Assembly: GCF_009909105.1 (NCBI RefSeq)
Contig: NZ_JAAAPK010000002.1
Location: 285,827 to 349,826, forward strand
Length of the DNA: 64,000 nt
Source: Corallococcus exiguus
Lineage (GTDB): Bacteria > Myxococcota > Myxococcia > Myxococcales > Myxococcaceae
Reading direction: 5' to 3'
This document shows, one piece after another, positions 29,830 to 32,271 of the stretch. Numbering within the stretch: position 1 is the stretch's first letter; every line of letters starts with the position of its first letter. The notes under the pieces are model-generated. The model had not been told where the DNA came from. It made no database searches and worked only from the letters and a program-made list of their open reading frames with translations. The position numbers and the translations under genes are program-made.

Positions 29830-32271
29830 CTAGGTCATCTCCACATCGAGGACCAGCGAGGCCCGGATGGGATGTCCATGACTGCTCCAGAAGCGATGGA
29901 GCAGGTCAAAGTCATAACTCTCCTGGACGCGAGGTGTGAGCTTGCGGCCATCCAGCTCGTGCGGGAGTCCACGTGAGAGCAACCCATGCAACACGCCAAG
30001 CAGCTCATGTTCCTCCTCCGCGCGGTGGGACCACGCGGAGACGATGAGCCCCAGCCGCAGCGCACCGTTCTGGGTGACAGCCAGCCGGTAGAGCGCAAGC
30101 GACACGGCGGGCCGCTTCCCCGCGAGCGCCTCCCGGGTGGGAGAGCCGTGGAGGATGTGGACCTCCTTGAGGAAGTGTTGTCTGAGCTGCGAGTCCAGTG
30201 CCTCCTGGAACACTTCCGCCACGCGGCGCAAGCGTGTGCCCGCGTCCGAAGGAGCCTCCGCCTCCGGACGCCGCGAGAGCCGGCCCAGCTCGTACAGCTC
30301 CAGCGCGACCGCGCGCTCCAGGTGCTCCTGAGACAGCGGAGCACCCGCCTGTTCGGCGAGGAAGATGGCCTTGAGCGCGGCGTTGCGGATGTCGCCGCCC
30401 GCCAGCCGGTGCCGCTGCGCCAGGCCCGCCAGGTCGAGCGCCCCCGCGCGAGGCACACCCTCCGGAAGCATCAGCTCCCAGATGCGGCGGCGCTCGTCGA
30501 CCTCGGGGAAGGGGAACTCGATGCGCGCGTGGAAGCGGCGCAGGAAGGCTTCATCGATGGCCGTCTGCAGATTGGTGGCGAGGATGATCAGCCCGTCGTG
30601 ACGTTCGATGCGCTGGAGGAGGAAGCCGACCTCCAGGTTGGCGAAGCGGTCATTGGCGTTGCTGACCTCCGTGCGCGCGGAGAACAGCGAGTCCGCCTCG
30701 TCGAAGAACAGCACGGCGCCGGAGCGCTCGCCGTGGGACAGCACCTCGTCGATGTTCTTCTCCGTCTCACCCACGTACTTGCTGACGAGCCGGGACAGGT
30801 CGATGACATACAGCGGCCGGCCCACCGCATGGGCGATGACCTCCGCCGCCAGGGTCTTTCCCGTGCCGGAGCGTCCAGAGAAAAGCGCCACCGGGCCCGT
30901 GTGCAACCGGAAGCGGCGAGACAGGCCACGCTCTTCGGCGACGCGGTCGCGCTGGGCCACGTAGAACAGCAGGCGCTCCAAGGCCGCGCGAGTGGTGTCA
31001 CGCACCACGAGGTCCTCGAACGTCCGCGATGTCTCCAGCCGGTAGCCATGGCGCAAGGGCACCTGGACCAGCCGAGATGCAGCGGCACGAAGCGCATCCG
31101 CGTCACCGCCGGGAGCCGAGTCGAACACGCGGCGGATCTCCTGAAGCCCGCCCCGAAAGCCAGACGCCAGCCGTCCCGCATCCGCCTCCGTCAATGACAG
31201 TCCCCGAACCTGGGCCTCCTCCAGCCACAGGGTCCGCCGCTGGACGAAGCCTGGCGCGGGAGCCTCATGGTGCGGCACGGCGAAAGGCTGCGCGGAGTCC
31301 GCGAGCACCAGGGCCCGCCCGCCAAACCGTTGGCACAACCCAGACAGCGTCTCCGTGACGGAGAGTGCCAGCCCCCGCTCACCACCGGACATGTCCACGG
31401 CCAGCATCGCGCCGCGCACCGACGCCAGACGCCACAGGGCCCGGGCCATGGAAACCGGCTCCGGTGCCCCAGCCCACCGAGCGACAACCAGCGGCACACC
31501 GGCTTCGTCAGCGAGGCTCATCGCCACGCCCAGCCGCTCCCCCTCGCCATGCACGACAGCGAACGTCCCGAGTGACGAAGACGGCAGCACCTCCGGTCCA
31601 TGCCACTCCAGCGAGAGCTCGCCCAGCACGGAGGGCCGGGGCAGCTCCAGCAGGGCCTCGCGGACCTCCGGAGCCAGGTCCACGGGCCGGAGCATGGGAG
31701 GAAAAGCGCCAGCGCCCGTCTGCAACAATCCTCCGCCCACCAGGAGTCCGCTGTCGGTCAGGGACGCCAGCAAGCGCTGCGCGCGAGCAGGCGTGCGTCC
31801 CAGGACGGTGAGCAGCAGTCGCTCCACGTTCCATCCCTGCGCGGTCTCGTCCTGGAGCACGGCGAACAGGCGCGAATACCGGGGCTCCAGCCACGTCGCG
31901 AGCAGGAGCAATAGCGCCTCCTCCTCCACGGTGTCGACGCGAAGTGAAGCCCGCAGCCGCGCGAAGGGAAGGGGAGGCGAAGTCCCCAGGAGCGGCGTCT
32001 CCGCGAGCGCCGAGCTGAAGGCGAGCTCGGCGGTGGAAGGGCGCACGGTGGTGCGCACGGCATCCCAGCCATTCTCCTGTTCCCCCCGGAGCTTCGAAGC
32101 GCGGGCCTCCTCCAGGTCACACACCTGGACGAGCAGCGCATCCAGACGCCTCAGCGTCTCCCCCCACAACGGATCCATGGGCGCCTCCAGCCGGCCAGCA
32201 TACGGAGGGCGGGTGGATCCGGCCATGGACGGGCCCGGAGGGCAGGTTCCACTGCGTTGGTATTCCGCCAA
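29830..32271 (-). CDS. AAA+ ATPase with a ~480-aa N-terminal extension and one classic C-terminal AAA domain. Architecture resembles eCIS Afp15/Pvc15-type ATPases. Start uncertain (32178-32271).
   Basis: Walker A 'GRSGTGKT', Walker B 'VLFFDEAD', sensor-1 'ILATN', arginine finger region 'AFLRRF'. 32271 is a TTG. The internal ATG at 32178 has a GGAGG RBS. Confidence 0.8.
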   Translation of the reverse strand: MAEYQRSGTCPPGPSMAGSTRPPYAGRLEAPMDPLWGETLRRLDALLVQVCDLEEARASKLRGEQENGWDAVRTTVRPSTAELAFSSALAETPLLGTSPPLPFARLRASLRVDTVEEEALLLLLATWLEPRYSRLFAVLQDETAQGWNVERLLLTVLGRTPARAQRLLASLTDSGLLVGGGLLQTGAGAFPPMLRPVDLAPEVREALLELPRPSVLGELSLEWHGPEVLPSSSLGTFAVVHGEGERLGVAMSLADEAGVPLVVARWAGAPEPVSMARALWRLASVRGAMLAVDMSGGERGLALSVTETLSGLCQRFGGRALVLADSAQPFAVPHHEAPAPGFVQRRTLWLEEAQVRGLSLTEADAGRLASGFRGGLQEIRRVFDSAPGGDADALRAAASRLVQVPLRHGYRLETSRTFEDLVVRDTTRAALERLLFYVAQRDRVAEERGLSRRFRLHTGPVALFSGRSGTGKTLAAEVIAHAVGRPLYVIDLSRLVSKYVGETEKNIDEVLSHGERSGAVLFFDEADSLFSARTEVSNANDRFANLEVGFLLQRIERHDGLIILATNLQTAIDEAFLRRFHARIEFPFPEVDERRRIWELMLPEGVPRAGALDLAGLAQRHRLAGGDIRNAALKAIFLAEQAGAPLSQEHLERAVALELYELGRLSRRPEAEAPSDAGTRLRRVAEVFQEALDSQLRQHFLKEVHILHGSPTREALAGKRPAVSLALYRLAVTQNGALRLGLIVSAWSHRAEEEHELLGVLHGLLSRGLPHELDGRKLTPRVQESYDFDLLHRFWSSHGHPIRASLVLDVEMT

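What the first reader, a model, noticed from the sequence alone, without database searches (positions are those of the whole stretch)
29830..32271. AAA+ ATPase with Afp15-like layout placed convergent to the spike operon
The classic-clade AAA motifs are intact and a ~480-aa N-terminal extension is present. In eCIS loci such an ATPase lies next to cargo genes, as it does here next to the 2670-aa giant. The convergent rather than collinear arrangement with the spike operon, separated by a perfect hairpin at 18815-18842, is atypical for eCIS. It suggests either a split locus or an independent loading module.
Basis: partly seen in the sequence, partly recalled or inferred. Interest (0 to 1): 0.6.

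Follow-up and report, generated by a model that had tools for sequence, protein, structure and literature searches.

The report
Injection-system loading ATPase fused to cap
The gene is a real loading ATPase of a phage-tail-like injection system in Corallococcus, and it carries at its end a copy of the tail "cap" domain that other systems encode as a separate gene, which suggests where the motor docks to load toxin into the tube.

Summary
The ORF is real. Its true start is most likely the ATG at 32178, giving 782 aa rather than 813.

It has the Afp15/Pvc15 layout: a winged-helix N domain, a degenerate AAA D1 and an intact classic-clade D2. D2 scores 198-206 bits against eCIS ATPases and 56 bits against FtsH.

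They form an Afp16/Pvc16-type tail-terminator ("cap") domain, supported by:
- PF14065 hits in 27 of 28 family tails;
- an AF2 model with pLDDT 89;
- Foldseek, whose five best PDB hits are all CIS caps.

Canonical relatives end at the AAA lid and encode the cap as the neighbouring gene. No separate cap was detected in the Corallococcus CIS operon.

The fused family is rare: 23 clusters among 1.84 billion representatives.

The convergent layout and the 18815-18841 hairpin are confirmed. A relative carries the same ATPase-giant module collinear with the spike operon, so the window shows an inverted 3' module and not a split locus.

Best reading: a cargo unfoldase docks coaxially on the distal tube end through its own terminator domain and threads the adjacent 2670-aa effector into the lumen. 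The domain identities are shown; the docking mechanism is inferred.

The parts
29830..32178 (-). CDS of the fused ATPase-cap protein (782 aa, stop codon included). The ORF lister's TTG at 32271 is probably not the start.
   Evidence: orthologues 781-787 aa; GGAGG 5 nt upstream of the ATG at 32178.
31612..32178 (-). N domain (aa 1-189): N-terminal helix plus winged-helix variant. The PF22977 hit covers aa 69-172 (nt 31663-31974).
   Evidence: E 3e-8, 34 bits against a cut-off of 27. The Serratia Afp15-like protein has the same domain. Alignment A3.
31045..31611 (-). D1 (aa 190-378): degenerate AAA-like domain. Its pseudo-Walker A is HGEGERLG, with no Lys/Thr and no DE Walker B.
   Evidence: hhalign of D1 against D2 aligns in register, E 0.002 over 101 columns. 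Alignment with Afp15-like proteins. The fold itself was not modelled.
30274..31041 (-). D2 (aa 380-635): active classic-clade AAA+ module plus lid. All catalytic motifs and the aromatic pore loop are present.
29833..30243 (-). C-terminal Afp16/Pvc16-type tail-terminator (cap) domain (aa 646-782). A linker of variable length (aa 636-645) precedes it.
   Evidence: PF14065 is the only family hit, in 27 of 28 family tails. AF2 pLDDT 89. The Foldseek top 5 are CIS caps 9gts, 9qgn, 7b5i, 6j0f and 7adz. hhalign against separate caps of unfused relatives gives E 9e-6 and 3e-5.
21786..29798 (-). Giant 2670-aa putative cargo/effector. The N-terminal ~580 aa are A/P/S-rich low complexity. Annexin repeats lie at about aa 1000-1500, a hydrophobic segment at about aa 1597-1780, and a C-terminal HESRH (DUF6782-like metallopeptidase) at aa 2597.
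   Evidence: Conserved directly downstream of the fused ATPase in L001 (50% identity), L003 and L019 (29% identity over 1650 aa).
21249..21773 (-). 174-aa protein of the cargo module, function unknown.
   Evidence: GC3 0.90. Homologue in L001. No family hit.
20463..21233 (-). 256-aa protein of the cargo module, function unknown.
   Evidence: GC3 0.87. Homologue in L001.
18949..20463 (-). 504-aa HEAT/FGE-sulfatase-like protein, the last gene of the minus-strand module.
   Evidence: An FGE-sulfatase protein occupies the same position in L001 and L003, and a HEAT-repeat protein in L019. Homology between them was not tested (L001 and L003 are cut at the locus end).
18815..18841 (.). Perfect palindrome (12-bp stem, 3-nt loop) in the gap of about 209 bp between the convergent operons. 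Likely a bidirectional terminator.
   Evidence: Terminator function is inferred; there is no U-tract.
3..3278 (+). 3' part of the Tail_P2_I-type baseplate gene (open at the window edge), with kelch-like repeats.
3281..10882 (+). Protein of about 2530 aa with a DUF6519 N-terminus and a right-handed beta-helix, fibre-like. The start coordinate is approximate.
   Evidence: The same gene is present in L019 and L020.
11218..12648 (+). gp5/VgrG-type spike (Phage_base_V plus gp5 C-terminal domain). The true start is probably near 11461.
   Evidence: The alignment to the L019 spike begins at aa 82.
12783..18521 (+). Four conserved genes of unknown function: 547 aa (12783-14426; weak tape-measure hit), 720 aa (14423-16585), 403 aa (16582-17793; P/R-rich) and 248 aa (17775-18521). 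A doubtful 73-aa ORF follows at 18518-18739.
   Evidence: Homologues lie in the same order in L019, L020 and L011. None resembles a cap.

Best explanation
The gene encodes the Afp15/Pvc15/Alg15-type AAA+ ATPase of a Corallococcus contractile injection system. Its layout is a winged-helix N domain, a degenerate D1 and an active D2.

Unlike characterised systems, it is fused at its C-terminus to an Afp16/Pvc16-type tail-terminator (cap) domain.

Proposed mechanism:
1. The protein forms a hexamer.
2. The six C-terminal terminator domains bind the distal end of the six-fold tube (and sheath) as a cap does. This places the exit face of the D2 pore coaxially over the tube lumen.
3. The N/D1 side recognises the disordered N-terminal region of the adjacent 2670-aa effector.
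4. D2 unfolds the effector and threads it into the lumen.

The ATPase gene and its cargo genes form a module. In this genome the module is inverted relative to the structural operon and ends at a shared hairpin.

Shown: the domain identities, family relationships, genomic linkage, the conserved ATPase-giant pairing, and the lack of a detectable separate cap gene.

Inferred: hexamer formation, docking on the tube end, the direction of threading, and that the giant is the cargo.
For: Architecture and motifs.

Closer to eCIS ATPases than to housekeeping AAA proteins:
- 41% identity, E 3e-59, to a Serratia Afp15-like protein, which ends exactly at our residue 635.
- 198-206 bits against 56 bits for FtsH.
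- PAN, CDC48 and FtsH models score only 47-64 bits, far below their cut-offs.

Cap domain:
- 27 of 28 tails hit PF14065 and nothing else.
- AF2 pLDDT 89.
- The Foldseek top 5 are all CIS caps, followed by lambda gpU, the pyocin collar and the AFP cap.
- hhalign against caps of unfused relatives gives E 9e-6 and 3e-5, 31% identity.

The fusion is not an artefact: 57 of the 58 best homologues, from several phyla, have Walker A followed by a tail of 339-381 residues. Two of these are N-terminally truncated, and one hit has no Walker A match.

CIS linkage:
- L002 and L013: the ATPase lies beside the sheath/tube operon.
- L011 and L012: it is flanked by eCIS_core (DUF4157) toxins.
- L019 and L020: it lies next to the spike operon.
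- The Corallococcus operon was rebuilt from L014, L007 and the window.

Unfused relatives keep a separate Pvc16_N gene next to the ATPase. No such gene was found in the loci with a fused ATPase.

Cargo: the giant follows the ATPase in three lineages and has a ~580-aa low-complexity N-terminus.

Literature:
- Where and when the ATPase acts on the particle is still unknown.
- Known cargo loading signals are disordered N-termini.
(bioRxiv 10.64898/2026.05.27.728243; PMC9054023; PMC11495950.)
Against: - No experiment and no multimer model was available. Docking, stoichiometry and the direction of translocation are all inferred.
- The window's own tail scores 26.6 bits, just under Pfam's cut-off of 27.
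- BLASTP and shallow hhalign comparisons with Serratia Afp16 are not significant.
- The fused domain lacks the C-terminal domain of Afp16/Pvc16. In the alignments to separate caps a segment between two strands is much shorter. It may therefore not bind as a true cap does.
- A divergent separate cap cannot be excluded. The N-terminal ~250 aa of the 652-aa first gene of the operon could not be tested alone.
- Alg15 was not detected in mature AlgoCIS particles, so stable attachment is not the rule elsewhere.
- In L002, L013 and L020 the ATPase has no adjacent giant.
Confidence: 0.62

Rival explanations
1. The fused protein is the system's only cap. The terminator domain ends tube and sheath growth and stays in the mature particle, which therefore carries a permanent AAA+ ring at its distal end. 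The ATPase may control assembly or length, or load cargo late, and does not dock transiently.
For: - No separate PF14065 gene or cap-like protein was found in the rebuilt Corallococcus operon or in L002, L013 or L019.
- Afp16-like proteins are reported as conserved in all eCIS (PMC6899500).
- Unfused relatives do have a separate cap.
Against: - Sequence methods barely detect even the fused tail, so a divergent separate cap could have been missed.
- The 652-680-aa gene sits where unfused relatives encode their cap (just upstream of the sheath gene), and its N-terminal part is unresolved.
- The fused domain lacks the C-terminal domain of Pvc16.
Confidence: 0.25
2. The C-terminal domain is a cap mimic that regulates assembly. 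It would occupy growing tube ends to delay capping or chaperone tube subunits. The AAA+ module would remodel structural proteins and would not translocate cargo.
For: - The terminator fold implies binding to tube ends.
- The shortened hairpin and missing C-domain relative to true caps fit a non-terminal binder.
- In L002, L013 and L020 the ATPase is not next to any cargo gene.
Against: - Homologous ATPases are required specifically for cargo loading, and particles still assemble without them (PMC11495950; PMC9054023; bioRxiv 2026 preprint).
- The pore-loop aromatic residue and all the motifs of an active classic-clade AAA module are conserved.
- The ATPase-effector pairing is conserved.
Confidence: 0.08
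3. The ATPase is unrelated to the injection system. It would be a housekeeping AAA protein (FtsH, CDC48 or PAN type), an IetA/IteA-type anti-phage ATPase, or a ClpV-like sheath recycler.
For: - The best NCBIfam and PADLOC hits are IteA/IetA (92 and 105 bits, D2 only).
- The best PDB sequence hits are VAT, CDC48 and p97.
Against: - All those scores are far below the family cut-offs (92 against 510; 59 against 803).
- Each housekeeping family model (PAN, CdvC, CDC48, FtsH) scores about a quarter to a third of the pairwise BLASTP score against eCIS ATPases, and FtsH itself gives 56 bits by BLASTP.
- No IetS-like model, protease domain or TM segment was found in the neighbouring genes scanned.
- The WHD N domain, the cap domain and the constant CIS linkage all argue against it.
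- ClpV belongs to a different AAA+ clade (established knowledge).
Confidence: 0.03
4. The fusion is an assembly or frameshift artefact that joins two neighbouring genes (ATPase and cap).
For: In canonical loci the two genes are adjacent and in the same orientation.
Against: - The same continuous architecture occurs in the great majority of the 58 best homologues, from independent genomes and metagenomes of Myxococcota, Alphaproteobacteria and Actinomycetota.
- The tail is 44-66% identical among family members.
- The short hits are fragments that still carry lid sequence upstream of the tail.
Confidence: 0.01

Closest known systems
Afp15 / Pvc15 / Alg15 (Cis15) AAA+ ATPases of extracellular contractile injection systems
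   Same: - N winged-helix domain (PF22977), degenerate D1 and active classic-clade D2.
- 41-45% identity in D2.
- Encoded in CIS loci next to effectors.
- Presumed role in recognising disordered N-terminal loading signals and unfolding cargo for the tube lumen.
   Different: - The canonical proteins stop at the AAA lid (Serratia 696 aa, Mycetohabitans 671 aa), and a separate cap gene follows.
- This one continues for ~147 more residues into a cap-type domain.
- Here the gene is convergent to the structural operon and not collinear with it.
Afp16 / Pvc16 / Cis16 tail terminator (cap) proteins, Pfam PF14065 (DUF4255)
   Same: - Same fold, with best structural matches 9gts, 9qgn, 7b5i, 6j0f and 7adz.
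- Shared motifs: ...P.VSL.LYR..., ...IVSAWS...EEEHELLG..., ...FWSS...P.R.S....
- Six-fold stoichiometry would match the tube.
   Different: - It is not a stand-alone protein.
- It lacks the additional C-terminal domain of Afp16/Pvc16.
- A segment between two strands is much shorter in the alignments to separate caps.
- It scores at or just below the Pfam threshold.
FtsH/Lon-type AAA+ machines (analogy of mechanism only)
   Same: A classic-clade AAA ring is followed in the same chain by a C-terminal ring domain, into which the substrate leaving the pore is delivered.
   Different: - There is no protease domain and no membrane anchor.
- The C-terminal ring would attach to a tube and not form a proteolytic chamber.
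- Sequence relationship is weak (56 bits).
ClpV/TssH of type VI secretion systems
   Same: An AAA+ protein associated with a contractile sheath machine.
   Different: - It belongs to a different AAA+ clade and has a different domain layout.
- It disassembles contracted sheaths; it does not load cargo.
- No similarity was detected here.

Membership tests
eCIS Afp15/Pvc15/Cis15 ATPase | N-terminal winged-helix variant domain (PF22977) | tested here: met
   E 3e-8, 34 bits against a cut-off of 27. The Serratia Afp15-like protein has the same domain.
eCIS Afp15/Pvc15/Cis15 ATPase | Active classic-clade AAA module (D2) with Walker A/B, sensor 1, two Arg fingers, sensor 2 and an aromatic pore loop | tested here: met
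   The motifs are conserved in alignment A3 and match those described for Pvc15 (PMC11495950).
eCIS Afp15/Pvc15/Cis15 ATPase | Degenerate AAA-like D1 between the N domain and D2 | tested here: inconclusive
   hhalign of D1 against D2 aligns in register but is weak (E 0.002, probability 13.5%). The pseudo-Walker A HGEGERLG lacks Lys. No structure model of D1 was made.
eCIS Afp15/Pvc15/Cis15 ATPase | AAA domain closer to eCIS ATPases than to FtsH, CDC48 or proteasomal ATPases | tested here: met
   198-206 bits against Serratia and Mycetohabitans eCIS ATPases, 56 bits against E. coli FtsH. NCBIfam PAN, CdvC, CDC48 and FtsH score 47-64 bits. No formal tree was built.
eCIS Afp15/Pvc15/Cis15 ATPase | Encoded in or beside a CIS structural locus (sheath, tube, baseplate, spike) | tested here: met
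   The window together with L014 and L007; L002, L013, L019 and L020.
eCIS Afp15/Pvc15/Cis15 ATPase | [quoted passage not shown] | not testable with these tools
   Needs genetics and particle proteomics.
Afp16/Pvc16/Cis16 cap (PF14065) | Significant match to Pfam PF14065 | tested here: inconclusive
   The window tail scores 26.6 bits, E 5.8e-6, against a cut-off of 27. In the family, 27 of 28 tails hit PF14065 at E<=0.01, best 1.4e-8.
Afp16/Pvc16/Cis16 cap (PF14065) | Tail-terminator fold | tested here: met
   AF2 pLDDT 89. The Foldseek top 5 are all CIS caps, at probability 1.00.
Afp16/Pvc16/Cis16 cap (PF14065) | Stand-alone protein, often with a further C-terminal domain | tested here: not met
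   The domain is the C-terminus of the ATPase and ends at the stop codon.
Afp16/Pvc16/Cis16 cap (PF14065) | Forms the hexameric cap on the tube and sheath of the particle | not testable with these tools
   Needs cryo-EM or binding assays.
IetA/IteA anti-phage ATPase | Score above the family cut-off and a partner IetS gene | tested here: not met
   92 bits against a cut-off of 510. PADLOC hits cover D2 only. No PADLOC model matched the three small downstream genes, and no protease domain was found in the other neighbours scanned.
FtsH / CDC48 / PAN housekeeping AAA | Score above the family cut-off plus the characteristic extra domains (protease/TM, double active AAA, coiled coil-OB) | tested here: not met
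   47-64 bits against cut-offs of 500-800. No such domains were found.

The most novel reading that the evidence does not exclude
In this rare CIS lineage the AAA+ loader is itself the tail terminator. The mature particle would then carry a built-in hexameric motor as its cap, coaxial with the tube. Cargo as large as 2670-3060 aa would be fed through the cap end after, or while, the tube is completed. This would give the first direct clue to the entry point and timing of eCIS cargo loading.
Probability: 0.25. Interest if true: 0.8.

Novelty: new variant of a known kind. Interest (0 to 1): 0.6.

Why it matters
How eCIS load large effectors into a narrow tube is still an open question. The ATPase is known to be required, but where and when it engages the particle is not known (bioRxiv 10.64898/2026.05.27.728243).

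A natural fusion of the loader to a terminator domain is a Rosetta-stone-type hint that loader and tube end interact physically. It points to loading through the distal (cap) end.

The idea can be tested directly with this protein by domain deletion, pull-down with tube hexamers, and cryo-EM of a Walker B trap.

It also affects genome mining. Pipelines that require a separate PF14065 gene may score such loci as lacking a cap.

Tried and rejected
- **Exact look-up of the 504-aa window protein.** It found nothing, so the hairpin region could not be compared across species.
- **BLASTP of the tail against Serratia Afp16.** It found nothing. An HMM built from the fused tails finds only fused tails among the loci held. 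hhalign against Serratia and Mycetohabitans caps was weak (E 0.014-0.067). Only the caps of the nearest unfused relatives gave clear scores.
- **Search for a separate cap.** These all gave no cap-like match:
  - Pfam on all window and L007 ORFs;
  - precomputed Pfam in L014, L002, L013 and L019;
  - hhalign of the tails against 13 candidate proteins;
  - hhalign of the 248/547/720-aa families against caps;
  - hhalign of the 652-aa family against caps.
- **Minus-strand ORF 18472-18936.** It was considered as a gene overlapping the hairpin. GC3 cannot separate it from the antisense 73-aa plus-strand ORF. Its translation looks unconvincing and it has no family hit. It is treated as probably non-coding, but this remains unresolved.
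- **Family assignments rejected.** IetA/IteA, FtsH, CDC48 and PAN were all rejected on score and context.
- **Promoter scan.** No sigma-70-like promoter was found, which is uninformative in a myxobacterium.
- **Literature.** Searches found no description of an ATPase-cap fusion. The library is incomplete, so this is not proof that the fusion is undescribed.
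Full report
**Observation**

The window has about 70% G+C, so genes were called by third-position GC. The ORF 29830..32271 on the minus strand exists. Orthologues annotated in Corallococcus genomes are 781-787 aa and up to 99% identical. A GGAGG lies 5 nt before the ATG at 32178. The real product is therefore most likely 782 aa (29830-32178).

In that numbering the catalytic motifs are complete:
- Walker A: G435RSGTGKT442
- pore loop: K467-Y468-V-G
- Walker B: VLFFDE494
- sensor 1: N536
- Arg fingers: R547/R548
- sensor 2: R598

About 434 residues precede Walker A.

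The giant ORF 21786-29798 (2670 aa) starts 31 nt after the ATPase stop. Three more minus-strand genes follow it (21249-21773, 20463-21233, 18949-20463).

**The junction with the spike operon**

The plus-strand operon continues past 16585 with three further ORFs:
- a P/R-rich 403-aa gene (16582-17793, ATGA overlap);
- a 248-aa gene (17775-18521);
- possibly a 73-aa ORF (18518-18739).

The first two have homologues in the same order in other loci, so they are real.

The gap 18740-18948 contains a perfect 13+1+13 palindrome at 18815-18841. It folds as a 12-bp stem with a 3-nt loop on either strand. It is unique in the window, and none is expected by chance.

**What the ATPase is**

Pfam finds a winged-helix variant domain (PF22977) and one AAA domain. 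A Serratia marcescens plasmid carries an Afp-like cluster. Its Afp15-like protein (696 aa) has the same two domains.

Evidence that D2 belongs with eCIS ATPases:
- The two proteins are 41% identical over 257 residues of D2 (E 3e-59).
- D2 scores 198-206 bits against the Serratia and Mycetohabitans eCIS ATPases, and 56 bits (25.5% identity) against E. coli FtsH.
- NCBIfam models for PAN, CdvC, CDC48 and FtsH reach only 47-64 bits, against cut-offs of 500-800.
- The best hits, IteA (92 bits, cut-off 510) and PADLOC IetA (105 bits), cover D2 only. No partner was found nearby.
- PDB sequence hits (VAT, CDC48, p97) place D2 in the classic clade.

The region between the N domain and D2 aligns in register with D2. 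Its Walker B strand, sensor 1 strand and lid line up (hhalign E 0.002). It lacks the catalytic residues, as described for Pvc15 D1 (PMC11495950).

**The part that was missed**

The Serratia protein ends at our residue 635, at the end of the lid. Ours continues for 147 residues.

Of the 58 best homologues (Myxococcota, Rhodospirillaceae and Acidimicrobiales MAGs, soil metagenomes), 57 have a Walker A motif followed by 339-381 residues. More distant relatives have about 200-220.

Evidence that the extra segment is a cap domain:
- Of 28 such tails, 27 hit Pfam PF14065 (Pvc16_N, the domain of eCIS cap proteins) and no other family. The window's tail scores 26.6 bits against a cut-off of 27.
- An AlphaFold2 model of the tail is confident (pLDDT 89, pTM 0.83).
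- Its five best Foldseek matches in the PDB are all CIS caps or terminators: the Streptomyces coelicolor CIS cap 9gts (E 5e-6, 24% identity), PlPVC1 cap 9qgn, Anabaena 7b5i, PVC 6j0f and AlgoCIS 7adz.
- These are followed by lambda gpU, the R2 pyocin collar and the AFP cap 6rap.
- The tail profile matches the separately encoded caps of the nearest unfused relatives (hhalign E 9e-6 and 3e-5, 31% identity).
- In a profile search of 1.84 billion representative proteins, only 23 clusters match at E<=1e-30. These are fused proteins or fragments of them that still carry lid sequence.
- The next hits in that search are stand-alone DUF4255 proteins of 164-210 aa.

The fused form is therefore a rare clade that is conserved within itself. 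Tail identity is 44-66% among the family members compared.

**Genomic context**

The plus-strand genes in the window are the tail end of a CIS operon. Related Corallococcus loci (L014, L007) rebuild the whole operon in this order:
1. a 652-aa protein
2. sheath
3. two gp19 tube proteins
4. a DUF6760 protein
5. a 72-aa protein
6. CIS_tube
7. a 92-aa protein
8. GPD hub
9. gp25
10. a Baseplate_J giant
11. an 842-aa protein
12. a Tail_P2_I protein (window gene 1)
13. a DUF6519/beta-helix giant
14. a gp5-type spike
15. four conserved unknowns

Fused ATPases in other lineages occupy different positions:
- divergent from the first gene of the operon (L002, L013);
- between eCIS_core/DUF4157 toxins (L011, L012);
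- convergent to the operon end (L020);
- collinear after the same four unknowns and followed by a 3060-aa giant (L019, homology).

The window is thus an inversion of the 3' ATPase-cargo module. It is not a split locus.

Canonical and nearest unfused relatives always show a separate Pvc16_N gene beside the ATPase. None was found in the loci with a fused ATPase, by Pfam or by profile comparison.

The one unresolved candidate is the N-terminal part of the 652-680-aa protein that sits where unfused systems have their cap. Its model matches only lectin/BoNT-Hc-like folds, and its N-terminal domain could not be searched alone.

**Cargo**

The giant is conserved directly downstream of the fused ATPase:
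- in L001 (50% identity);
- in C. coralloides;
- more distantly in L019.

Its features:
- a ~580-aa A/P/S-rich low-complexity N-terminus;
- annexin repeats;
- a hydrophobic segment;
- a C-terminal HExxH domain.

Published work shows that eCIS cargo carries disordered N-terminal loading signals. It also shows that very large toxins are loaded unfolded (PMC9054023). That the giant is cargo is an inference from these points.

**Mechanism**

Shown:
- the domain order N-D1-D2-terminator;
- the intact motor;
- the linkage to a CIS and to an effector-like giant.

Inferred:
- the protein forms a hexamer;
- its six terminator domains bind the six-fold distal tube end;
- substrate leaving the C-terminal face of D2 therefore enters the lumen.

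This topology resembles FtsH or Lon, where the AAA ring feeds a C-terminal ring in the same chain.

Whether the protein is the only cap and stays on the particle, or docks transiently and is replaced, cannot be decided here. Alg15 is absent from mature AlgoCIS particles, but that system has a separate cap.

**Comparison and novelty**

As an ATPase, it passes the testable membership criteria of the Afp15/Pvc15 family. As a cap, it has the fold and a borderline Pfam score, but it is not a stand-alone protein and lacks the C-terminal domain of Pvc16.

I found no description of such a fusion in the papers searched. The library is incomplete.

I rate it a new variant of a known kind. Interest is moderate to high, because it turns the open question of where eCIS cargo is loaded into a concrete, testable proposal.

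Noticed in passing
L014:3513-5471 (C. macrosporus); orthologue P0242 in C. exiguus; upstream of the window: The first gene of the CIS operon encodes a 652-aa protein with no family hit. It sits just before the sheath gene, where unfused relatives encode their cap. Its model has a ConA-like / botulinum-toxin-Hc-like lectin domain. Its N-terminal ~250 aa are unassigned.
   Followed up: partly
window 12783-18521 (+): Four genes of unknown function (547, 720, 403 and 248 aa) are conserved in the same order between the spike and the ATPase in L019, L020 and partly L011. The 547-aa protein has a weak tape-measure PHROG hit (E 1e-3). The 403-aa protein is P/R-rich, probably disordered, has unusually low GC3, and is conserved only at its first ~45 residues.
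   Followed up: partly
window 18472-18936 (-) versus 18518-18739 (+): Two antisense ORFs share the same third-codon positions, so GC3 cannot tell which (if either) is coding. These are a 73-aa Lys-rich plus-strand ORF with an ATGA overlap to the previous gene, and a 154-aa minus-strand ORF that would contain the palindrome.
   Followed up: partly
window 21786-29798 (-), aa 1000-1500 and 1597-1780: Annexin repeats, which are rare in bacteria, are combined in one 2670-aa protein with a long hydrophobic Gly/Ala-rich segment and a C-terminal HESRH motif. This suggests a membrane-targeting multi-domain toxin.
   Followed up: no
window 18949-20463 (-); L001, L003, L019: An FGE-sulfatase-type or HEAT-repeat protein occupies the last position of the ATPase-cargo module in distant lineages (FGE-sulfatase in the window, L001 and L003; HEAT in the window and L019). 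Homology between them was not tested, and its role (modification or immunity) is unknown.
   Followed up: no
L001:8364-9680 and L020:9879-11195: A histidinol dehydrogenase gene lies directly next to the fused ATPase in two unrelated metagenomic contigs. This may be coincidence or a conserved insertion site.
   Followed up: no
L018:8365-9783; window 44515-46302: A sigma-54 enhancer-binding protein lies directly upstream of the ATPase in an unfused relative. The window also encodes an NtrC-type activator about 12 kb away. Sigma-54 control of these CIS loci was not examined.
   Followed up: no
window 38231-50559: The right half of the window holds a polysaccharide-type cluster: aminotransferase, methyltransferase, a Polysacc_synt_3-like protein (weak hit), a WecG/TagA transferase, a Wzz-like protein and a phosphodiesterase. 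It appears unrelated to the CIS.
   Followed up: no
window 11218-12648 (+): The spike ORF as listed is probably about 80 codons too long at its 5' end. Homologues are 395-400 aa and align from residue 82.
   Followed up: partly
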